Source of the DNA: Naegleria gruberi
Taxonomy: Eukaryota
Length of the DNA: 64,000 nucleotides
Reading direction: 5' to 3' (one strand)
Assembly (NCBI GenBank): GCA_000004985.1
Contig: GG738851.1
Each line of letters starts with the position of its first letter. Position 1 is the stretch's first letter. Both the position numbers and the translations under genes were made by a program. Positions 13,704-47,176 of the stretch are shown piece after piece. The notes under the pieces are model-generated. The model ran no database searches and had not been told where the DNA came from. It saw only the letters and a list, made by a program, of their open reading frames with translations.

Positions 13704-13775
13704 GGGGACCAGTGGGAATCGAACCCACGGCCTCTCGCACCCAAAGCGAGAATCATACCACTAGACCATGGTCCC
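13704..13775 (-). tRNA. tRNA-Pro(TGG), 72 nt, intact.
   Basis: The reverse complement reads GGGACCATGGTCTAGTGGTATGATTCTCGCTTTGGGTGCGAGAGGCCGTGGGTTCGATTCCCACTGGTCCCC. The 7-bp acceptor stem, the T-arm GTGGG/CCCAC and the anticodon stem are all perfect. The anticodon loop is TTTGGGT. A T-run follows, consistent with a Pol III terminator. Confidence 0.9.
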
Positions 13776-16413: not shown

Positions 16414-16467
16414 TTTTTAATAAGAAATCTGAACAGTAAATTAATTACAAAATTAAATTATCAACAT

Positions 16468-16495
16468 ATAGGGCAAAATATTTCAATTCCGATCA
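16468..16495 (+). repeat. Left terminal inverted repeat of the pogo-like element.
   Basis: The sequence was compared directly with the reverse complement of 18538-18565. Confidence 0.8.
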
Positions 16496-16691
16496 CCCTC
16501 GATTTTCGATCATCTTGAACAATTTTAATAGTAAACTTTCAAAGTTTTTATAATGTATATGTAGTAGTGTGGGTCTTCTCTACCCGTATCGTTTGTTTGT
16601 TTTGGTGAATAAATTGTTTTGCAATAAAATTACCAAAGTTTACAACCATGTTTAATATGAAAAAAATATAATTCCGATCACCTTCATCATC

Positions 16692-18474
16692 ATGGTTAAG
16701 AAGAAATTAACAAAAAAGCAGGAACATGAACAACAGCAACAGGAAGAGGAGGAGAAGAGAGAGAAAGCATTAGAATATTATAATACCACAAATGGTGCAT
16801 CCATCAGAAGCGTAGCCAAAAAATTCGACATTCCATATACAACTTTTAATGATCTAGTAAATGGAAGATCATCAATTAATTCACATGCTGGTAGAAAGAC
16901 CTACTTTACTAAAGAGGAAGAGGATGAATTAAAGGAGTGGATATTTGAAAGGAATGATAATAATTTACCTGTCAATGAATATGATGTGATTAACAAAGCC
17001 AACAAGATGTATGAGTACAAGTACAATAAACCAAAAGATCTCTCTGATGGATGGTATCAAGACTTCAGAAGTAGGAATCATGATATTGCTGTTAGAGAAG
17101 CAGAAAGGCTTGAACAAGTTAGAACTGAAAGTGAAAATTCCCAAGTCGTAGAATTATTCTTTGATCAATTAGAGAAGGAAATTAAAAAGAATAACTTAAT
17201 GCCTGACCATATCTATAATTGTGATGAAACAGGAATCCAAAGGAATGAAACTACAGGATACACTCTTGCCAAAAAAAGGAAGTCATCCATCTATGGTAAC
17301 TTCTTCATCTAGAGAAACATGTTCAATACTTGTTTGTGGAAATGCTGCAGGATCATATGTTCCTCCTCTATTTATTTATAAAGGAAAATCCGTATCAGAT
17401 GATATGTTCAGTGATTTGGATAGTAAAGCAACGGTATTTGCTACTGAGAATGGATTTATTACAACAAATTGCTTTTTGAGTTGGATGAAGAAGAACTTTA
17501 TTGAACACATACCTTCAAGTAGACCAGTATTATTATTGTACGATAATCATTCCACTCACTGTGATTCTGATGTGTTGGAATATGCCAAGCAAAATAATAT
17601 TATTGTTATGTCCATTCCACCACACTTGAGTCACTTATATCAACCACTTGATGTAGGTGTTTTCTCATCCATGAAACAAAGTTTCAAACATTTTAATACT
17701 GAGTTCATGAAAAATAATTTAACCTCCTCACCATCCAAAAAAGACTTTACAAAGATATTACATGAAGCATATGAAAATTCTGCATCCCATCATAATATTG
17801 TTAGTGGATTCAAAGAAGCTTGTATTGTACCACTTGATAAGAAGTCAGCACTTGCCAAAATTCAACATTCCAAAAATAGTAATCAAGATGAAAAACCACC
17901 TTCCAAATTTGGAAATTTATTACATGAACCACCAAAACAAACCAAAGAAAAAACCAGAGTGAAAACTAACTTTGTACTAACACGCAACGACTATATGGTA
18001 ACAGCACTAGAAAAAAAAGCAGAAAAAGAAAAACAGAAAAGAAAGAAAGAGGAAGGAAAGACCCTTAGAGAAGCAAAGAAGAAAGCTAAAATCGAAACTC
18101 GTGCCCAAAACACCCTGTTGAAGAAACAGAAGCAACATGGTGTGGTTTGTTCATGTCATCATGCTTGTGGATCTAATCATACATGTAAATGCAAATTGGC
18201 GGGAAAAATGTGTACTATGTATTGTACTTGCCATGCAAAGTGTGCATATTCTATGGATAGAAATCCAACCTCCTCTCCAAGTGCATCATCATCACAAAAT
18301 ATATGCTGCTACTCTGGATGTAAATTTAAAGACGATCATGATGGTATGGTGACATGTTCGACTTGTAAAAAATTATGCCATTCCAAAACATGTACAATGC
18401 CATCAACAGAAACAATCAATGGAAAAGAGATTACCAACATCTTATGTATTGATTGTGGAGAGAAAGAGCCATGA
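16692..18474 (+). CDS. pogo-type transposase of about 590 aa: CENP-B/psq HTH, Tc5 HTH and a DDE_1 catalytic domain, followed by a Lys-rich linker and a C-terminal Cys-rich (CXC/metallothionein-like) domain. The frame is broken once in an A7 run at 17271-17277.
   Basis: ORF1 (16692-17312) ends …YNCDETGIQRNETTGYTLAKKRKSS…. ORF2 (17221-18474) continues …LLPKKGSHPSMVTSSSRETCSILVCGNAAGSYVPPLFIYKGK…LLLYDNHSTHCD…PPHLSHLYQPLDVG…. Removing one A from the A7 run fuses both into a canonical DDE_1 alignment. The C-terminus reads CSCHHACGSNHTCKCKLAGKMCTMYCTCHAKC…. Confidence 0.8.
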
Positions 18475-18537
18475 CTTCCCAATGACTTTTCAAATAAATC
18501 AACAATTTATTGCTGCACCAGTGATCGGAATTTGAAT

Positions 18538-18565
18538 GTGATCGGAATTAAATTATTTTGCCCTA
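18538..18565 (-). repeat. Right terminal inverted repeat of the pogo-like element.
   Basis: The sequence was compared directly with 16468-16495. Confidence 0.8.
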
Positions 18566-18922
18566 ATAGTTGGAAATTTAAATCCGTAGGTACTTGTATC
18601 CTCTCCAGAACGAAGATACAATTTCATTGGAATTTGTTGATGACGAGTTGAATTTTTGAAAATTTCGGACAATAATTAAAATTGTAATTTTTAAATGTAA
18701 CGGTAAAGATTTTAAAAAAATTAAGAAATTCCATCCTCACTTTATTCATATTATTACATAATGATGAACAAACACTCTAAAAGGTTGCGTTGGGGTATGG
18801 ACATCTTCATTAAAATTGAAGTCCACTCAGTAAGCGAGCACTTTCTCCACTCATCATCATGCTAAGGAATTTAGGCTTCTTGATTGTCATCATTTACAAT
18901 ATCAAAAAAAACACAAGAGAGA

Positions 18923-40413: not shown

Positions 40414-41477
40414 CTATTATTGAGTTTAGTATAGTTTGATGGTTTCGTATAAAATTATATAATAGGTGGAGATGAGGAAATTCATATGAATACATATCGA
40501 GGATCGTGGTCACAACATTGGTTGCAAGACAAGGATTTTCAGGTTCCACAAAATAATTGATGACGAGAATACTATTCGAAAGTGGGTGAAATAGACGAAC
40601 GTACCTTGTTAGGCGATTAAATCTTGTCAATTTTTTTGAAATGTTTGACCGTTCGTAATCGACGTCTTTCACATCTTGACAGGCAACCGATTTGACTCGG
40701 CTTTAGCCATCACAAGCTATTCGAAAGCAGAAACGAAACTCTAATTCAGCAAATTCAACAATTTTTTAATTTCAGTCCATACGGAGTTGTTTTCTTACAT
40801 TTGATATTTATTAGAAATCTTCATATTAATTTCATAGCAATATTCAATTCAAAGGTATTCGAAAGCTTTTTACACAACATTGAATATTGGAAAATCAAGT
40901 TTCGATTACAAGCGAGTCATTAAATAGTGTACTATTCATCTTTGGTAATAAGCATGATAGGAGTAACTGCGAGCATTCACTGTAGTTTACACACTTTACA
41001 AAAATACTATTATGGATTTGTGAGGAGGCTGAATGCAACATGCAACAAGCTACTAGAAGTGAGGAAGAACTTGATAAATTATTGAAACCTTCTTAAAGTT
41101 ATGTTACTTACTTCAGTGAACAAATTTAATTGAAAAGCTATCCTATAGAAAGCACACATTCTGTGACTTCATTCAACATTGTGGACGATCGTTGAAATGT
41201 TACGGCCTTAACCATGTCCAATGCAACAACAGTCTTGTTTTTTAACAATATGTGTGTGTAATGAATTCGATGATGTTTATTGGTGTGGTGTAAATTTCTC
41301 TTTCACACTGTGTGAATTGTAATTTAAGCGGTTTGATCCACGTTCAGTTTTGGTAATTGTGGACAATAAAAGACAAATATCTAGATATCTTGCCTTAATT
41401 AGAACTACCAAGCAAGAATTTTTGTTTTTGTTAAAAAATTATTTTTTGACATTTAGCTTTGTGGCAAGATGCAAAAA

Positions 41478-41890
41478 TTAAGGGTTACTTGCAAAATAAT
41501 ATCCAAAAACCAATTTGAAAGTAGAATAATCTCCCTTTTTAAGGCCCATCATACAATTCTTATACATTTTTCCTCTTTCTTCTGGTGAATTTTGCAAGAA
41601 TGAAATTAAAACTTGAAAAGTATCAGCATTAAAATCTTTCAAAACTTTTTCTCCTTCCTCTGATATCAACAATTTCTCCTCATTTTCTTCAAATAACATC
41701 TCAATAGGAGAAGTTTGATATTGTTGAATGAAATTGTCGAGATCCCTGCAGAAATAAGAAGAATAATTGATAAAATGTTGAGCAAGATACAGTTGGTTCT
41801 GATTATTTGGATCGATTGCTAAACCTAAGAAATGATGAAACTCAAGAAGTGTTGAGCAGTGAAGGAAAACATTTTGTGATTTTTGTGTCA
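41478..41890 (-). CDS. Hypothetical protein, about 137 aa from the first ATG.
   Basis: The ORF in the track starts at a TTG. The first ATG (MTQKSQNVFLHC…) is at 41890. Confidence 0.3.
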
Positions 41891-42229
41891 TTTGTTTTTT
41901 TTTCTTTAGAATTGAGTGGATTGTAGGCTGATTAGTTAAATAATAGAGGTCATTCCACAATATATTTATTAATAGAAGAGGGCTTGGAAAAAAAATTTGG
42001 TGTTTATTGAAGGGTCCATTTCAATTAACGGGACAAAAAAAATTGTTTTTATTTTTGGAAAGCTTAAAAGTTCAATAAAAAAATGATGATCAATCGGAGG
42101 CTAACATCTTCATAAATACAATGAATTAATGAATGAAAATTGGACCATACAGAGAAATATACGTCTGCTATCTACTATAAAAACTGGAACATTTTTAAAA
42201 AGAAAATAGTGTCTAAAAATTATGATTTG

Positions 42230-42684
42230 ATGCGTCGACCGGGAATTGAAATTTCCTTTTTTGGAACTCATTTAACTTTTAATTTTATGATGAAATTATG
42301 AATGTTTTATTTTATTATTATTCATGATGTGAAACATCATGTTGAATTCTGTTCATTATTTTTAATTCATGATGTGAAACATCATGTTGAATTATTAACA
42401 AATGTTGTTCTTCAATTTTTCATTGAATGTTGGAAATATTGGAAAGTTGGAAATAAAAGTTGGAAGTTAGGTAACGGGTTATGGAATTACCTAATGTGAA
42501 ATACATTGTAACAGAATTAACAAGAATAAAAGCAAAATCCTACATAGAGTTGGAGAACGGGAAATGAAATTCCCAAATTGAAATTGAGAAACAACTATTC
42601 ATTTCACAATAATTCATACTATCAAAATGAATTGAACCCGGGTCACGGCGATGGCAACGCCGTATTCTACCACTAAACCATCGA
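42230..42684 (-). pseudogene. tRNA-Gly(GCC) gene split in its T-loop by a 378-bp insertion. The 5' part is 42684..42629 and the 3' part is 42250..42230.
   Basis: The 5' fragment reads GCGTCGATGGTTTAGTGGTAGAATACGGCGTTGCCATCGCCGTGACCCGGGTTCAATTC and the 3' fragment reads TTCAATTCCCGGTCGACGCA plus T5. Joined they make a perfect 71-nt cloverleaf with acceptor GCGTCGA/TCGACGC, T-stem CCGGG/CCCGG and anticodon GCC. TTCAATTC is present at both junctions. Confidence 0.8.
42251..42628 (-). mobile_element. 378-bp non-coding MITE-like insertion inside tRNA-Gly, flanked by an 8-bp direct duplication, TTCAATTC.
   Basis: It contains two perfect 29-nt direct repeats (ATTCATGATGTGAAACATCATGTTGAATT at about 42316 and 42365), each an imperfect palindrome. 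It also has a (GTTGGAA)n microrepeat at 42425-42465, an 8-bp inverted repeat TTAGGTAA…TTACCTAA at 42467-42494, and an A-rich end. There is no ORF and no clear TIR. Confidence 0.6.
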
Positions 42685-42878
42685 CGCTTCTTATTAGTCT
42701 ATCAAATATTATAATAATAGATAGTGTGATTTAATAAACTGTCATCAATGAAGTGTGAACAAATGAATGGAGCGCCACATTACCAAAAAAAAATATCAAC
42801 CCTAAACGGTTTATCGTTTCAACATGTAGCCAAATTTTTCAAGAACAAAAAGCAATAATTTATCACCAACAAGAATAC

Positions 42879-44076
42879 TTGAGAATGATAAATCAAGTTA
42901 ATAGTAATAATGAAAATAACTCTTCTGATGATCACAAAAAGCCAAGAAAAACCAAGTTTCAAGAAATTCTAGAAGCACCGAAAGGATGTACAGAATACAA
43001 TCCTCATCAATCTTTTGCTTTGCAAGTATATTGGATTGTACGTTCCCCACGCTGCTTCTGAGATGATACAACATGGCTTTACTCCATGCGCATCGGCTAC
43101 ATCAAGGGATACACCAACAACAATAACCTACTTGTTCAGAGTTTCCAAAGATCAGAGATTAGCCGAACAGATGAAACAAGAGGTTCTCTCTATTGGACAA
43201 CACCCACACTATCAACCATCCTTTAAAAGTTTATCGATGGGAGTGCCACAGACAAGTGTAGAATTAAAATTGAGACATGGTGGTATTGATACAAAACCAC
43301 TCTCATGGGCACAAGATGAATCTATTGAAGCACATAGAGAAGAATTGGATTTTGATCCTGTTGTGTTGGAGTGCACTGAAATTTACTTGGACAATAGAAG
43401 TTTTTATGAACATGGAGCTTCTCGTGAGTGGATGACTTTCTCTGCTGAAATTCTAAAGCCAGCCAGATCATTAAAGCCAAAGACTTATTGTGTTGGTACT
43501 CCTTCTCAAGAAATTTGGGAGAAAACTCTCGAATCCTATTTAAAGGCAATTCGAATGGATGATGAAACTGTTGGAAAGGATATTAATCCTGGTCTATTTG
43601 TGCTACCTGAAAACTTTGTGGAGAATGTTGATTCAACTAGGTTTTTCCTAGAGTTGGATTTACAAGTAGAAAGAGACTGTATTGAAGTTGTTCGTCCATT
43701 ACTTGGTCAACTACAAAAAGATCTCAAAGCATCCTATATGATTATTCTTCCAATCAATATGGATAATGATAAGCCAACTGTTATTGAATTAAGAATCATG
43801 CTCTCATTTTCTCATTCCTCCAATATCGACCCATCTCAACTAAAAGCAATTTCCAACCAATGCAAGAATTTAGATGGAAGATTAATTGTTTTTGGAACTA
43901 GTGAAGAGGAAGATATCAACAAGGCCAATCATTTCGTAGAATTGACCTCTATCACTGATTCAAAACTTTCCATTCTTCACTCCAAACAAGCTGAAAACTC
44001 TATTCTTGCAGGCTATCCTCTTCATCCATTGATTAATACTTTGACTCAGAATGATCAATTACAATATCAAGTGTAA
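42879..44076 (+). CDS. Hypothetical protein of about 385 aa. Either two exons (42879..43025 and 43063..44076, intron 43026-43062) or a single exon starting at ATG 43063.
   Basis: A GTATAT…TCTGAG 37-nt intron joins the 60-aa ORF in phase to the 353-aa ORF. Alternatively the upstream ORF is a uORF. Confidence 0.35.
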
Positions 44077-44134
44077 TTCAATAAATTAATTTTTCACTAA
44101 GGCGGGAAATTGAAAAAAGTAAACGTTAAAAAAA

Positions 44135-45682
44135 ATGTCCCAATCTTCATCTTCACTCTTTCCCAAGAAGAATTCAACACCTTCTTCGTCCTCTCTGACG
44201 CCTCGATCCTTTAGTAAGCAACAGCAACAACAAAAGGAACCAACAACTCCATCCCGAATACAAAAAGATGGTGGATTCTCCTATCAAACACCAAATAATA
44301 ATGTAAATAATTCAAACAAATCTTTGGATGAGGAAATTGAATACTTTTCATCACCAGAGACTAGTATTGATATGGCTCCTAGTCCGATCAAGAATGATTA
44401 TCGGAAAGATCCAGAATATTCTCCATCATTATTTACCAAATATCCTTCACCAACACCTGTACAAAATTTTGATTTGGATTGTAATAATATTGATAATAAT
44501 CATAATAATAATTTGATGACATCAAAAAGAAAGGAAGAGGAGATTTATGATAATTTATTCGATGATGATGAAGAAAAACCAATTTTAAAATCTAACAGTT
44601 CATCAGCACCATCACTAATTCAATCAAGTACATCATCTTTGAATCGACAAACAGAACAATCATTTATACAAGAAACATTTCCATCAACTCCTAAACGATC
44701 GTCTCCTTTTCCTAAACGGTCAAATGTTGAAAATTTCTCAACACCTAATGCATCCAAGTTGGAGAAGAAATCTTCCTCGAGGAGAAGTCTTGAATCCTTA
44801 ATGGATACATCCACAATGGATTTGGAACAATACGAGCAATTTAATGTAGATAATATTATAATACCAATTCGAGAATCAACATCTAAACAATTATCAAGTT
44901 TGAGGAATGATACAAATGGAAATTTGGAAACTCCAGCTGTAACTAAAGTTGAGAAGAGACATCAGGAATTATTTCATCATTATCTAGAGGAAAAAGGGGA
45001 TTTGAGGAATGCAATGCTATTACTGAATCAATTCCATATGAAACAACACAAAATGAATGTTTTGAATTTTAAACTTAATTCGATCAACTTGGTAGCTAAC
45101 TTTGCCAATGCTGTGAATTCACAAAAACTTCAACTAGAACTCCATAAGAGTAAAAAGGTTGTGGCTAATTTAAATGGAAAAGTGGAATATCTCAATGATA
45201 CTGTAGAGGGTTTAAATCAGGAAGTTGAACAACACAAATCTTCTCTCTCCTCTTTCATGCAAAAATATTACAAAACGGTGGAAGAGCTCCAACAAAATCA
45301 ACTAGTTCAGAGGATGCAACTAGATGATATAATGAAGTTGAAGAGCAGAGAGGGAGTCACTGTAGACCTACTCATCCTTTTTGCAATGAGTTATTTGGTA
45401 CGAAAAAGTAGAATATTCCACAGATTTTTAAAGTTTATTTTCATGTTTCTTCCTTTCAATGGAATAGTCATTATCATTTCGAAAATTCTGGCAACGATTG
45501 GTTTAATGTTGTTATCGAGGAAAGCTGCCATTAAAGTAGGTGTTCATGCTGGGGCAACGAGTGTAGCATATGGACTCATCCAAACTCTACAATTTTCATT
45601 CAATACTGTAAAATCAATTTTCCAATTGTTGAAAATTGTTCCATCCTTAAAACCCCAAAATGATGATGAGAAGAATAAATAG
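44135..45682 (+). CDS. S/N-rich protein with a coiled coil and C-terminal transmembrane helices, 515 aa.
   Basis: Single ORF with a low-complexity N-terminus. Hydrophobic helices lie near the C-terminus (…VDLLILFAMSYLV…, …IVIIISKILATIGLMLL…). Confidence 0.45.
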   Translation: MSQSSSSLFPKKNSTPSSSSLTPRSFSKQQQQQKEPTTPSRIQKDGGFSYQTPNNNVNNSNKSLDEEIEYFSSPETSIDMAPSPIKNDYRKDPEYSPSLFTKYPSPTPVQNFDLDCNNIDNNHNNNLMTSKRKEEEIYDNLFDDDEEKPILKSNSSSAPSLIQSSTSSLNRQTEQSFIQETFPSTPKRSSPFPKRSNVENFSTPNASKLEKKSSSRRSLESLMDTSTMDLEQYEQFNVDNIIIPIRESTSKQLSSLRNDTNGNLETPAVTKVEKRHQELFHHYLEEKGDLRNAMLLLNQFHMKQHKMNVLNFKLNSINLVANFANAVNSQKLQLELHKSKKVVANLNGKVEYLNDTVEGLNQEVEQHKSSLSSFMQKYYKTVEELQQNQLVQRMQLDDIMKLKSREGVTVDLLILFAMSYLVRKSRIFHRFLKFIFMFLPFNGIVIIISKILATIGLMLLSRKAAIKVGVHAGATSVAYGLIQTLQFSFNTVKSIFQLLKIVPSLKPQNDDEKNK

Positions 45683-45686
45683 TTTA

Positions 45687-46607
45687 TTATTTCTTTGAAA
45701 TGTCGAGCATGAATTTGAAAATCGCAATTGGTGGAATATATTGGGTGACACCCAAAATTTCAAATCCAAGTTTCTGGTACAGTCTTCTAGCACCATATTG
45801 AAGTGAGCTAGTCTTGAGAATGATTCTATTCATTTGTAATTCTTGAGCATACTTGAAGACATATCTCAATAGAACAGTAGCCACACCTCCACCACGATAT
45901 GAGCTCTTTACACTCATTCTTCTAATTTCAATCATTTTCAATGGATTGATTTGATACTTTTCATATTCTTCAATGAATTCAGCATCTTCAACCTTATCAC
46001 CTGGATAAATCCACTTATCGAGAGCAACATGACCAACAATTTCATCACCATCCATAGCCAAAAAGAAATTATTCTCTGGTTTGCTCTTATTATTTGCATA
46101 ATAATTATTGATATCTCCCAACTCGTTTGATTTTCTATTCTTCATAATGTACTTTCCCATATCCTTAGCAATAATTGGCAATAGCACAAATTTAAAAACA
46201 GCATACAACATTCCACTCAATAACACCAAAAATCCAACATAAACCATCAGTTTCAATCTTGTCACTTCCACAACTTCAACACCCAACAATTTTCCAATCA
46301 AAAACCACGAAATATAAAACGTAGACCAAATGAAAAATTGCAACTTGTATCCATAATATTCCTGAAACAAGGCCACCAATGAAGTACTTCCATTTCCTTG
46401 ATCCACACCAAACAATAGACCAACAATCTTTCCATAATCATTGAACAAATCTTTCGGAACACCATCCATCATTCCGTTCGTAAAAATGTCGTGTACTTGA
46501 TTTTGTATTTCCGAACGTATCTTTTCCTCATCACCACCATCATGATTGAGCCTTCGCTGGACCAACTCATTGAACGATAAAACTTCGAGTTTGTTGTTTT
46601 GTTTCAT
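45687..46607 (-). CDS. Membrane-anchored GNAT N-acetyltransferase (NAT8/camello-like), 306 aa.
   Basis: Two or three N-terminal TM helices are followed by a GNAT core (…IVGHVAL…IRRMSVKSSYRGGGVATVLLRYVFKYAQ…LYQKLGFE). Confidence 0.55.
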   Translation of the reverse strand: MKQNNKLEVLSFNELVQRRLNHDGGDEEKIRSEIQNQVHDIFTNGMMDGVPKDLFNDYGKIVGLLFGVDQGNGSTSLVALFQEYYGYKLQFFIWSTFYISWFLIGKLLGVEVVEVTRLKLMVYVGFLVLLSGMLYAVFKFVLLPIIAKDMGKYIMKNRKSNELGDINNYYANNKSKPENNFFLAMDGDEIVGHVALDKWIYPGDKVEDAEFIEEYEKYQINPLKMIEIRRMSVKSSYRGGGVATVLLRYVFKYAQELQMNRIILKTSSLQYGARRLYQKLGFEILGVTQYIPPIAIFKFMLDISKK

Positions 46608-47176
46608 TTTTTTGTGTTACTTTTAAAAACTTTGTCATCTTTACAAGCAAACCAACAAACTTGAGGTTTTATCGTTGAAAATATCAGACAGATATATCTA
46701 TTGAATAACATTGAATTTCCATAGTTGAAATTTTCACACGAATTGGTAAAAGGAAAAAGACTACAGCACCACAGGTTCCCAAGTTGTCTCCAACCTCAGT
46801 ACTGATGTGGCTCGACGATGCTTAACTTCTCAAATCGGACGGGATGAGGTGCATTCATCGTGATATGGCCGTAGCCATTCATGGTATGAAATCATTCCTT
46901 ATTAATTGAAATACTTTCTTTATGTGTGAAATATACATATGTTTTTCTTTTCAAGACCGGACTTGAAAATTAGGTAATGAGCCTTGAATATCCAATTTAT
47001 GAATCAGACCGTGTATACCTCCTATTGAACATGTTGAATCGAAACGTTGTATGTAGGAAAGTAATTAAGCTAATTTATAGAGCTAAAAGAAATTCCAATC
47101 CGATCATACTTTTTTCCGAAACCACTATCCCAAATCATATTAGAGTTGAAGAACCTTTCAGAGCTTTGTCAAAGGG

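What the first reader, a model, noticed from the sequence alone, without database searches (positions are those of the whole stretch)
42230..42684. tRNA-Gly(GCC) gene split in the T-loop by a 378-bp insertion with an 8-bp direct duplication
The first 56 nt of a near-canonical tRNA-Gly(GCC) run from 42684 to 42629 on the minus strand. They include the D-arm, a perfect anticodon stem and the T-stem 5' strand. About 380 bp downstream lies the missing 3' part, TTCAATTCCCGGTCGACGCA followed by TTTTT, at 42250-42230. The 3' part exactly restores the T-stem, the acceptor stem and a Pol III terminator. TTCAATTC occurs at both junctions. This is the signature of a transposable-element insertion with an 8-bp target-site duplication into a tRNA gene. 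The tRNA is presumably inactivated. Insertion inside, rather than next to, a tRNA gene is unusual in eukaryotes.
Basis: seen in the sequence. Interest (0 to 1): 0.7.

Follow-up and report, generated by a model that had tools for sequence, protein, structure and literature searches.

The report
Insertion-split tRNA-Gly gene in Naegleria
One of the many glycine-tRNA gene copies of the amoeba Naegleria gruberi has been cut in two by a 378-base piece of inserted DNA flanked by an 8-base duplication, which almost certainly kills that copy; what the inserted DNA is could not be established.

Summary
On the minus strand, 42687-42629 is the first 59 nt of a tRNA-Gly(GCC) gene and 42250-42231 is the last 20 nt. 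TTCAATTC (T-loop plus one base) is present at both junctions, and 378 bp of 25%-GC non-coding DNA lie between. Joining the halves gives a perfect 71-nt cloverleaf. It is 71/71 identical to an uninterrupted tRNA-Gly(GCC) gene on an environmental contig (Rfam 66.9 bits, against 21.2 bits for the split locus). The window is Naegleria gruberi NEG-M, whose genome carries about 924 tRNA genes.

The mobile-element reading is only partly supported. The 8-bp duplication fits a staggered-cut insertion. However, the insert has no terminal inverted repeats in any register, no LTR or Helitron ends, no clean poly(A), no coding capacity and no Rfam match. No second copy turned up in any sequence I could search, and the full N. 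gruberi assembly was not searchable.

Insertion inside eukaryotic tRNA genes is not unprecedented: Dada transposons do this. The duplication happens to allow a bulge-helix-bulge-like fold, but that fold is energetically disfavoured and the insert starts with a T4 run.

Verdict: a real, recent, probably neutral insertion pseudogene of modest interest.

The parts
42629..42687 (-). 5' part of tRNA-Gly(GCC), tRNA positions 1-59. It contains the acceptor 5' strand, the D arm (A box TGGTTTAGTGGTA), the anticodon arm with GCC, the T-stem 5' strand and the T-loop through C61. The B box is 10/11 retained (GGTTCAATTCa).
   Evidence: Sequence read; extraction and ARAGORN fold of the joined halves; identical to L005:207-265.
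42629..42636 (-). Copy 1 of the 8-bp direct duplication TTCAATTC (tRNA positions 54-61).
42251..42628 (-). 378-bp insert: 25% GC, non-coding, no TIRs, A-rich 3' half on the tRNA-sense strand. It starts ATTTTG (a T4 run at 42627-42624) and ends CCAAAAAAGGAAAT.
   Evidence: No other copy in the window (blastn).
42315..42393 (.). Internal 45-bp tandem duplication (2 copies, 94% identical over 34 nt). Each copy carries a hairpin CATGATG-TTTCA-CATCATG (tRNA-sense strand).
   Evidence: the repeat finder D2/D13 and I1; TRF.
42243..42250 (-). Copy 2 of the 8-bp direct duplication TTCAATTC.
42231..42250 (-). 3' part of tRNA-Gly(GCC): T-loop copy, T-stem 3' strand, acceptor 3' strand and discriminator A (tRNA positions 54-73 equivalent).
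   Evidence: identical to L005:258-277.
42215..42219 (-). T5 run, the original Pol III terminator of the gene, 11 nt after the tRNA 3' end.
   Evidence: Comparable T runs follow tRNA-Pro, 5S rRNA and the L005 tRNAs.

Best explanation
This is one copy of the highly multicopy tRNA-Gly(GCC) gene family of Naegleria gruberi. It was recently hit by an insertion event that cut the two DNA strands 8 bp apart in the T-loop/B-box (positions 54-61). A 378-bp AT-rich non-coding DNA was joined in, and the gaps were filled, which duplicated TTCAATTC.

Shown:
- the split;
- the perfect duplication;
- the undecayed state of both halves;
- the existence of an identical intact paralogue.

Inferred:
1. The copy is dead. 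The 5' half keeps the A box and 10 of 11 B-box bases, so Pol III may still start. It would then meet TTTT two bases into the insert and three more T4 runs later. Any product would lack the T-stem 3' strand and the acceptor 3' strand.
2. The inserted DNA is most likely a short non-autonomous or 5'-truncated mobile element that has no terminal inverted repeats. A retroposon-type copy is slightly favoured: no TIRs, variable-length TSDs are normal for target-primed reverse transcription, and the 3' half is A-rich and ends AAAAAAGGAAAT. A TIR-less DNA transposon of the Dada kind is the alternative.
3. With about 924 tRNA genes in 41 Mb, the loss is neutral, and a chance hit on a tRNA gene is not improbable.
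For: - Halves and duplication.
- Perfect cloverleaf after joining.
- 71/71 identity to the intact gene on L005, and 66.9 against 21.2 Rfam bits.
- Recency: 0 substitutions in 79 nt of tRNA halves plus duplication. For comparison, flanking DNA differs by 2-7% from a conspecific-like environmental strain.
- No TIRs and no significant subterminal inverted repeats.
- Four T4 runs on the tRNA-sense strand, the first at insert positions 2-5.
- T4 runs are the first T-runs after tRNA-Pro in the window and after tRNA-Ile on L005.
- A-runs are concentrated in the 3' half of the insert.
- The organism is N. gruberi NEG-M.
- N. gruberi has 924 tDNAs: PMC2888827.
- Mobile DNA exists in this genome: a pogo-type transposon lies in the same window.
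- TIR-less transposons inside tRNA genes are documented: PMC3706591.
Against: - No second copy of the insert was found anywhere I could look: the window, six fetched loci, IMG/VR, GTDB genomes, and the protein collection via its 65-aa ORF. Repetitiveness, the defining property of a mobile element, is therefore unproven.
- The ends match no superfamily signature.
- The 3' end is A-rich but is not a poly(A) tail.
- 8 bp is outside the 6-7 bp reported for Dada and outside the 3-6 bp reported for LTR elements (PMC3706591; PMC10045372).
- No empty site could be recovered. The two related metagenome contigs stop at 42670 and 42170, on either side of the site.
Confidence: 0.6

Rival explanations
1. 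The insertion is not a mobile element. A double-strand break or stalled fork in the tRNA gene (tRNA genes are replication-fork barriers) was repaired in one of two ways. Either an unrelated 378-bp DNA fragment was captured, or microhomology-mediated template switching copied a unique sequence from elsewhere and returned 8 bp upstream. Either route would create the short duplication.
For: - Single copy as far as could be searched.
- No TIRs, LTR ends, poly(A) or coding capacity.
- The insert's composition (25% GC) resembles ordinary N. gruberi intergenic DNA.
Against: - A clean, perfect 8-bp duplication with no deletion or filler at either junction is the classic product of an enzyme-made staggered cut. 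It is not typical of end-joining capture.
- The source sequence is not within the 64-kb window.
Confidence: 0.25
2. The insert belongs to a family that specifically targets the T-loop/B-box of tRNA genes. It could be Dada-like. Alternatively it could be a non-autonomous element moved by a tyrosine recombinase, in which case TTCAATTC would be the crossover core rather than a fill-in duplication. Its position inside the gene would then reflect targeting, not accident.
For: - Dada elements lack TIRs, sit at fixed sites inside tRNA and snRNA genes, thrive in genomes with many tRNA genes, and occur in protists (PMC3706591).
- N. gruberi has 924 tDNAs.
- The target TTCAATTC contains the palindrome AATT in a conserved promoter element.
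- Insert positions 55-74 resemble the 3' junction at 17/20 positions (D3).
Against: - The duplication is 8 bp rather than 6-7 bp.
- The target bears no resemblance to the Dada target motifs (CTGCG..., TAGCTC).
- The internal similarity to the tRNA is not significant: 261 of 2000 shuffles do as well.
- The other tRNA genes seen (tRNA-Pro in the window; tRNA-Ile and tRNA-Gly on L005) are uninterrupted.
- No transposase of that kind was seen in the window.
Confidence: 0.1
3. The 386 nt behave as an ectopic tRNA intron. The duplicated T-loop lets the precursor form a bulge-helix-bulge: T stem, UUC bulge, AAUU:AAUU 4-bp helix, UUC bulge, then AUUUU:GAAAU helix. Cleavage in the two bulges followed by ligation would restore the exact mature tRNA.
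For: - The 3-4-3 geometry can be drawn, and equivalent cuts in the two UUC bulges regenerate the intact sequence.
- Both halves are completely undecayed.
- Ectopic BHB introns, including in the T-arm, exist in archaea and in Cyanidioschyzon merolae and nucleomorphs (my own knowledge, not tested here).
Against: - The bulge-helix half of the motif follows automatically from duplicating a T-loop that ends in the palindrome AATT.
- The outer helix is weak and needs an extra bulged C.
- The forced structure is 9.5 kcal/mol worse than the unconstrained fold, and a mini-substrate does not adopt it.
- The insert begins with TTTT and holds three more T4 runs, which should stop Pol III.
- The insert is far longer than any known nuclear tRNA intron.
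- No group I or other intron family matches, and no G is available as a group I 3' terminal base in any register.
Confidence: 0.03
4. Assembly artefact in the 2010 Sanger assembly: a chimeric join placed foreign sequence inside the tRNA gene.
For: None specific. Two independent metagenome contigs of a close strain both stop short of the region.
Against: Mis-joins do not create a precise 8-bp duplication with both halves of the gene in the same orientation and in correct order. The surrounding 64 kb is colinear with the metagenome contigs on both sides.
Confidence: 0.02

Closest known systems
Dada DNA transposons (Kojima & Jurka 2013, PMC3706591)
   Same: They insert inside tRNA and snRNA genes rather than beside them. 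They have no terminal inverted repeats and make a short target-site duplication. They are found in protists (Perkinsus marinus, including a tRNA-Gly-specific family), in genomes with very many tRNA genes. Internally deleted non-autonomous derivatives exist.
   Different: - Their TSD is 6-7 bp, against 8 bp here.
- Their targets (GCG-containing sites, or TAGCTC in the A box) are unlike TTCAATTC in the B box.
- No subterminal repeat mirrored in the target could be shown.
- No Dada transposase was seen.
- Dada has not been reported from Naegleria.
8-bp-TSD cut-and-paste superfamilies (hAT, P, Merlin) and their MITEs
   Same: The size of the duplication (8 bp) and the small non-coding size typical of a MITE.
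   Different: These elements are defined by terminal inverted repeats. None exists here in any of the nine possible registers.
5'-truncated non-LTR retrotransposon or SINE-type retroposon insertions
   Same: No inverted repeats. TSDs are of variable length and 8 bp is ordinary. The insert is non-coding and its 3' portion next to the downstream TSD is A-rich.
   Different: There is no true poly(A) or simple-repeat tail, no internal Pol III promoter, and no identified LINE partner.
tRNA-gene-targeting retrotransposons (Dictyostelium TRE5/TRE3, DGLT-A; yeast Ty1-Ty4)
   Same: They are associated with Pol III genes in a compact protist genome.
   Different: Those elements integrate upstream or downstream of the tRNA gene and leave it intact. 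Here the gene body itself is disrupted.
Ectopic bulge-helix-bulge tRNA introns (Thermoproteales archaea, Cyanidioschyzon merolae, nucleomorphs)
   Same: An interruption in the T-loop, and a drawable 3-nt bulge / 4-bp helix / 3-nt bulge arrangement.
   Different: Known examples are tens of nucleotides long and have stable BHB motifs. Here the motif is a by-product of the duplication, is energetically disfavoured, and the insert contains Pol III stop signals.
Prokaryotic integrative elements that recombine in the T-loop of tRNA genes
   Same: The crossover or duplication lies in the partly palindromic T-loop sequence.
   Different: Those elements carry a replacement 3' tRNA part and an integrase and leave a functional gene. 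Here nothing is restored, and the host is a eukaryote.

Membership tests
tRNA gene (Rfam RF00005), tRNA-Gly(GCC) | The sequence folds into a canonical cloverleaf and passes the family threshold. | tested here: met
   The joined halves give a perfect ARAGORN cloverleaf. The identical intact gene on L005 scores 66.9 bits against a gathering score of 29.
tRNA gene (Rfam RF00005), tRNA-Gly(GCC) | The contiguous genomic locus is itself a functional-looking gene. | tested here: not met
   The split locus 42617-42687 scores 21.2 bits, below 29, and is absent at gathering threshold. The ARAGORN call at 42617-42688 uses insert bases.
Transposable-element insertion (generic) | A direct duplication of target sequence at both junctions. 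| tested here: met
   TTCAATTC lies at 42636-42629 and 42250-42243. Removing one copy plus the insert restores the intact gene exactly.
Transposable-element insertion (generic) | Other copies of the same sequence elsewhere, with different flanks. | tested here: inconclusive
   None in the 64-kb window, six loci, IMG/VR or GTDB, and none via the ORF search. The 41-Mb N. gruberi assembly itself could not be searched.
Transposable-element insertion (generic) | An empty (uninterrupted) orthologous site in a related strain. | tested here: inconclusive
   Contigs of a 93-98% identical environmental strain end at 42670 and 42170 and do not cover the site. The syntenic regions of N. fowleri and N. lovaniensis have no tRNA.
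hAT / P / Merlin-type TIR transposon or MITE | 8-bp TSD. | tested here: met
hAT / P / Merlin-type TIR transposon or MITE | Terminal inverted repeats. | tested here: not met
   The terminal matching run is 0-2 nt in the nine shifted registers (4 nt, ATTT, for the 378-bp insert alone, by eye). The best end-to-end inverted alignment scores 17, against a shuffle mean of 20.
Dada superfamily | Insertion at a site inside a multicopy small-RNA gene, without TIRs. | tested here: met
   The feature is as described in PMC3706591.
Dada superfamily | 6-7 bp TSD. | tested here: not met
   The duplication is 8 bp. The Dada paper notes apparent 8-bp cases and reinterprets them as 6 bp, so this is not absolutely excluding.
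Dada superfamily | [quoted passage not shown] | tested here: inconclusive
   There is a 17/20 match between insert positions 55-74 and the 3' junction. The similarity to the tRNA is not above shuffles, and there is no significant subterminal inverted repeat.
Dada superfamily | A Dada DDE transposase encoded by autonomous relatives in the same genome. | not testable with these tools
   The insert is non-coding. No such protein appeared among the 44 window ORFs scanned with Pfam.
Solo LTR of an LTR retrotransposon | TG...CA termini and a 3-6 bp TSD. | tested here: not met
   The ends are ATTTTG...GGAAAT in every register and the TSD is 8 bp. The TSD range is from PMC10045372.
Non-LTR retroposon (truncated LINE or SINE) | A 3' poly(A) or simple-repeat tail abutting the downstream TSD; no TIRs; variable TSD. 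| tested here: inconclusive
   There are no TIRs, and the 3' half is A-rich, ending CCAAAAAAGGAAAT. That is not a homopolymer tail, and no partner element is known.
Helitron | No TSD, insertion between A and T, 5'-TC ... CTRR-3' ends with a 3' hairpin. | tested here: not met
   An 8-bp duplication is present. No register gives TC...CTRR (read).
BHB-type tRNA intron | A stable bulge-helix-bulge at the exon-intron junctions. | tested here: inconclusive
   The geometry is possible, but it is 9.5 kcal/mol above the MFE and is not adopted by a mini-substrate. It is also absent from the MFE of the full precursor.
BHB-type tRNA intron | The precursor is transcribed through the intron and spliced. | not testable with these tools
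   No RNA data are available. Four T4 runs in the sense strand argue against read-through.
Group I / group II intron | A match to the ribozyme core; a 3'-terminal G (group I) or GUGYG...AY ends (group II). | tested here: not met
   No Rfam match even at E<=10. No G is available at the 3' boundary in any register (the duplicated sequence TTCAATTC contains no G).

The most novel reading that the evidence does not exclude
The 8-bp duplication of a T-loop that ends in the palindrome AATT automatically builds a bulge-helix-bulge-like junction: T stem / UUC / AAUU:AAUU / UUC / weak outer helix. If the Naegleria tRNA-splicing endonuclease can use it, the inserted DNA would be removed as an ectopic intron and the gene would still yield tRNA-Gly. 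That would be a live example of a mobile-DNA insertion being converted into a non-canonical tRNA intron in a eukaryote. A weaker variant is that the insert belongs to an undescribed Naegleria element family that specifically targets the B-box/T-loop of tRNA genes.
Probability: 0.04. Interest if true: 0.85.

Novelty: new member of a known kind. Interest (0 to 1): 0.3.

Why it matters
As it stands, this is a clean example of a tRNA pseudogene made by a recent insertion in a genome with an unusually large tRNA gene complement. Three practical points follow.

1. Annotation. ARAGORN calls the broken 5' part a complete tRNA.
2. A dating marker or polymorphism between N. gruberi strains.
3. A lead into the poorly catalogued mobile DNA of Heterolobosea.

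It would matter much more in either of two cases. The first is that a genome-wide search shows the same sequence sitting at the same T-loop position in other tRNA genes, which would mean a new target-specific element outside the known Dada range. The second is that RNA data show the insert is spliced out, which would bear on how ectopic tRNA introns arise.

Tried and rejected
**Searches for other copies of the insert**
- blastn (word size 7) against the window and against six fetched loci gave only low-complexity hits.
- Exact 24-26-mers from the 5' end, the 3' end and the internal hairpin gave 0 hits in IMG/VR.
- The hairpin 25-mer gave 0 hits in GTDB genomes.
- The 65-aa ORF inside the insert, used as a proxy query against 5.8 billion proteins, shared no words with anything.
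- Exact look-ups of the two 53-aa ORFs that span the 3' junction were not on record.

**Search for an empty site**
- I recovered two contigs of a close environmental strain (ERZ929261) through flanking proteins.
- They end at window positions 42670 and 42170, so they do not cover the site.
- The N. fowleri and N. lovaniensis syntenic regions contain no tRNA at all.

**The single metagenome DNA scan**
- I spent it on the tRNA 5' part. It returned the intact paralogue but no second interrupted copy.

**Classifications rejected**
- TIR transposon or MITE: no TIRs.
- Solo LTR: wrong ends and wrong TSD length.
- Helitron: a TSD is present and the ends are wrong.
- Group I/II intron or any Rfam family.
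- Derivative of the pogo-type element at about 16.4-18.6 kb: no similarity, and pogo makes TA duplications. An 11-nt string, ATTTCAATTCC, is shared between that element's TIR and the 3' junction; I judged it coincidental.
- A mitochondrial-DNA fragment is unlikely. The insert has no long ORF and its only ORF has no homologue. This could not be tested directly.
- Two truncated tandem tRNA genes: this would need two independent deletions ending at the same 8 bp.
- The internal resemblance of insert positions 55-74 to the tRNA 3' part is not significant.

**Literature**
- Searches for Naegleria transposable elements or interrupted tRNA genes found nothing specific.

Full report
**What is in the sequence**

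Read on the minus strand, the region runs in this order:
- GCGTCGATGGTTTAGTGGTAGAATACGGCGTTGCCATCGCCGTGACCCGGGTTCAATTC (42687-42629);
- 378 bp of AT-rich DNA (42628-42251);
- TTCAATTCCCGGTCGACGCA (42250-42231);
- TCAAATCATAA, then TTTTT (42219-42215).

The 5' part starts at 42687, not 42684, and is 59 nt long, not 56. The 3' part ends at 42231. The T5 run lies 11 nt after the gene rather than directly following it.

The octamer TTCAATTC is present at both junctions (42636-42629 and 42250-42243). It corresponds to T-loop positions 54-60 plus C61, which is the core of the Pol III B box.

**Do the halves make a tRNA?**

- Joining them with one copy of the octamer gives a 71-nt sequence. ARAGORN draws it as a flawless tRNA-Gly(GCC).
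- A scan of JGI metagenome contigs with 33 nt of the 5' part returned one contig, L005. It carries an uninterrupted tRNA-Gly(GCC) next to a tRNA-Ile.
- That gene is identical to the joined halves at 71 of 71 positions and scores 66.9 bits against Rfam's tRNA model.
- The split locus reaches only 21.2 bits, below the threshold of 29.
- ARAGORN's own call of a "complete" tRNA at 42617-42688 is therefore a false completion that uses insert bases.

**Organism and context**

- The window is gene-dense at about 34% GC.
- Three of its ORFs are exact matches to NCBI proteins of Naegleria gruberi on a 693,645-bp scaffold, so the window is N. gruberi NEG-M.
- The split gene lies in a roughly 780-bp spacer between two divergently oriented genes: an ORF at 41478-41960 on the minus strand and a CCDC53-like gene starting near 42742-43015 on the plus strand.
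- The window also holds an intact tRNA-Pro (13704-13775), a solitary 5S rRNA gene (46758-46876) and a pogo-type DNA transposon.
- N. gruberi is reported to have 924 tDNAs (PMC2888827). That is about one per 44 kb, so losing one copy should be neutral, and a random insertion hitting a tRNA gene is not extraordinary.

**The insert**

- It is 25% GC. Its only ORF above 33 codons (65 aa) has no relative among 5.8 billion proteins.
- It matches no Rfam family even at E<=10.
- It contains a 45-bp tandem duplication. Each unit carries a 7-bp-stem hairpin, CATGATG-TTTCA-CATCATG.
- It has no terminal inverted repeats in any of the nine registers that the 8-bp repeat allows. The best inverted alignment between its two ends scores below the mean of dinucleotide shuffles.
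- The ends, ATTTTG...GGAAAT, are not TG...CA. No register gives Helitron ends. No G is available as a group I 3'-terminal base.
- On the tRNA-sense strand the T4 runs are in the 5' half (positions 2, 92, 98, 171). The A runs are in the 3' half, which ends CCAAAAAAGGAAAT.
- Insert positions 55-74 resemble the 3' junction at 17/20 positions. Local alignment of the insert against the tRNA is matched or beaten by 13% of shuffles, so I treat the resemblance as chance.
- The insert alone, folded on the plus strand, is no more stable than shuffles (z = -0.5). The low z-score of the whole 457-nt unit (z = -4.9) may owe much to the tRNA stems; the insert alone was not folded on the tRNA-sense strand.

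**Is it a mobile element?**

The 8-bp duplication, perfect and without deletion or filler, is what an enzyme-made staggered cut followed by gap repair produces. That supports a transposition-type event.

The defining test, other copies with other flanks, could not be completed. Everything searchable was negative:
- the window and six fetched loci;
- IMG/VR with three different 24-26-mers;
- GTDB genomes;
- the protein collection through the insert's ORF and two junction ORFs.

The complete N. gruberi assembly cannot be searched by DNA with these tools.

An empty site could not be obtained either. Two contigs from metagenome ERZ929261, 98% and 93% identical to the window, stop at 42670 (17 nt into the tRNA) and at 42170 (61 nt past it), leaving the site uncovered. 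The syntenic regions of N. fowleri and N. lovaniensis carry no tRNA.

**Age**

There is no substitution in the 79 nt made up of the two halves and the duplicated octamer, measured against the intact paralogue. Neighbouring spacer DNA differs by several percent from the related environmental strain. The event is therefore recent. Gene conversion among tRNA copies is the alternative explanation for the lack of decay.

**Consequence for the gene**

The 5' part retains the A box and 10 of 11 B-box positions at the native spacing, so TFIIIC binding and Pol III initiation remain plausible (inference). Two bases into the insert the polymerase meets TTTT. T4 runs are the first T-runs after tRNA-Pro in this window and after tRNA-Ile on L005, so T4 may well terminate in this organism. 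The expected product is a fragment of about 64 nt lacking the 3' strands of the T stem and acceptor stem. It would be non-functional.

**The intron idea**

This tRNA's T-loop ends in the palindrome AATT, and the duplication spans the whole loop. A precursor could therefore pair as follows:
- T stem (CCGGG:CCCGG);
- a 3-nt bulge, UUC;
- a 4-bp helix, AAUU:AAUU;
- a 3-nt bulge, UUC on the other strand;
- a weak helix, AUUUU:GAAAU, with one extra bulged C.

Cuts at equivalent positions in the two bulges would regenerate the mature sequence exactly. This is a bulge-helix-bulge-like geometry.

However, the first half of the motif follows automatically from the duplication. Forcing the structure costs 9.5 kcal/mol relative to the free fold, and a mini-substrate does not adopt it. 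The four T4 runs and the 386-nt length also argue against a Pol III precursor. I keep this as a low-probability but interesting reading.

**Comparison with known systems**

Dada DNA transposons insert at fixed sites inside tRNA and snRNA genes. They lack terminal inverted repeats, occur in the protist Perkinsus marinus (including a tRNA-Gly family), and flourish where tRNA genes are very numerous (PMC3706591).
- The present insert shares the TIR-less, intragenic character. It differs in TSD length (8 bp against 6-7 bp) and in target sequence. The Dada-defining transposase and target-mirroring subterminal repeats could not be shown. It works like a Dada insertion but cannot be filed as one.
- Superfamilies with 8-bp TSDs (hAT, P, Merlin) are excluded by the absence of TIRs.
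- LTR elements are excluded by the ends and by the TSD length (3-6 bp; PMC10045372).
- A 5'-truncated non-LTR retroposon fits best on negative evidence: no TIRs, variable TSDs and an A-rich 3' region. It lacks a real tail and a known partner.
- The tRNA-targeting retroelements of Dictyostelium and yeast integrate beside the gene, not within it.

**Verdict**

The structural observation is correct and solid. The element identity is unresolved. I put about 0.6 on a mobile-element insertion that inactivates a redundant gene copy, and about 0.25 on non-transposon templated or captured DNA. Small probabilities remain for a target-specific family, an intron-like behaviour, or an assembly error.

It is a new instance of a known kind of event (an insertion-made tRNA pseudogene) and of modest interest, unless the genome-wide search or RNA data listed under next steps turn up site specificity or splicing.

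Noticed in passing
window 16434-18598 (+): A pogo/Tigger-type DNA transposon. One ORF carries HTH_psq and HTH_Tnp_Tc5 (16692-17312). An overlapping ORF carries DDE_1 (17221-18474), so the transposase is frameshifted or intron-split. It is bounded by ~74-nt imperfect terminal inverted repeats (16439-16512 / 18522-18595) that contain repeated AATTCCGATCAC motifs, with CAGT/CAAGT-type ends next to TA. It is unrelated to the 378-bp insert.
   Followed up: partly
window 45687-46607 (-) and 44135-45682 (+): A 306-aa GNAT acetyltransferase ORF has 42-43% identical orthologues annotated in N. lovaniensis and N. fowleri (in those genomes an unnamed 546/578-aa gene sits in the position of the 515-aa ORF). 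Neither this ORF nor the neighbouring 515-aa ORF is on record as an N. gruberi protein. These genes therefore seem to be missing or modelled differently in the NEG-M annotation.
   Followed up: partly
L001 (ERZ929261 k127_573689) = window 42670-46863; L006 (k127_470126) = window 40606-42170: An environmental metagenome (run ERR1078381, project PRJEB11402) contains an N. gruberi-like strain 93-98% identical to the window. One contig ends 17 nt inside the tRNA-Gly gene at one end and inside the 5S rRNA gene at the other, suggesting assembly breaks at multicopy Pol III genes.
   Followed up: partly
window 42617-42688 (-): ARAGORN reports the broken 5' part as a complete 72-nt tRNA-Gly(GCC) by recruiting insert bases. 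Infernal/Rfam scores it at 21.2 bits, below threshold. This is an annotation trap for split tRNA genes.
   Followed up: yes
window 46758-46876 (-): A solitary 5S rRNA gene (105 bits) lies between protein-coding genes, followed by a T5 run. It is dispersed rather than linked to the extrachromosomal rDNA plasmid known for Naegleria.
   Followed up: no
window 42555-42574 versus 42237-42256: A 20-nt stretch inside the insert (GGGAATTTCATTTCCCGTTC, itself a small hairpin) matches the 3' junction (GGAAATTTCAATTCCCGGTC) at 17/20 positions. It is not significant against shuffles when scored against the tRNA alone. It is reminiscent of the target-mirroring subterminal repeats described for Dada elements.
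   Followed up: partly
L005 1-1473 (JGI metagenome contig Ga0247722_10058881): A Naegleria-like contig with tRNA-Ile(AAT) and tRNA-Gly(GCC) 87 bp apart in the same orientation. Each is followed by T4-T5 runs. An unidentified ORF, which I did not scan, lies downstream.
   Followed up: no
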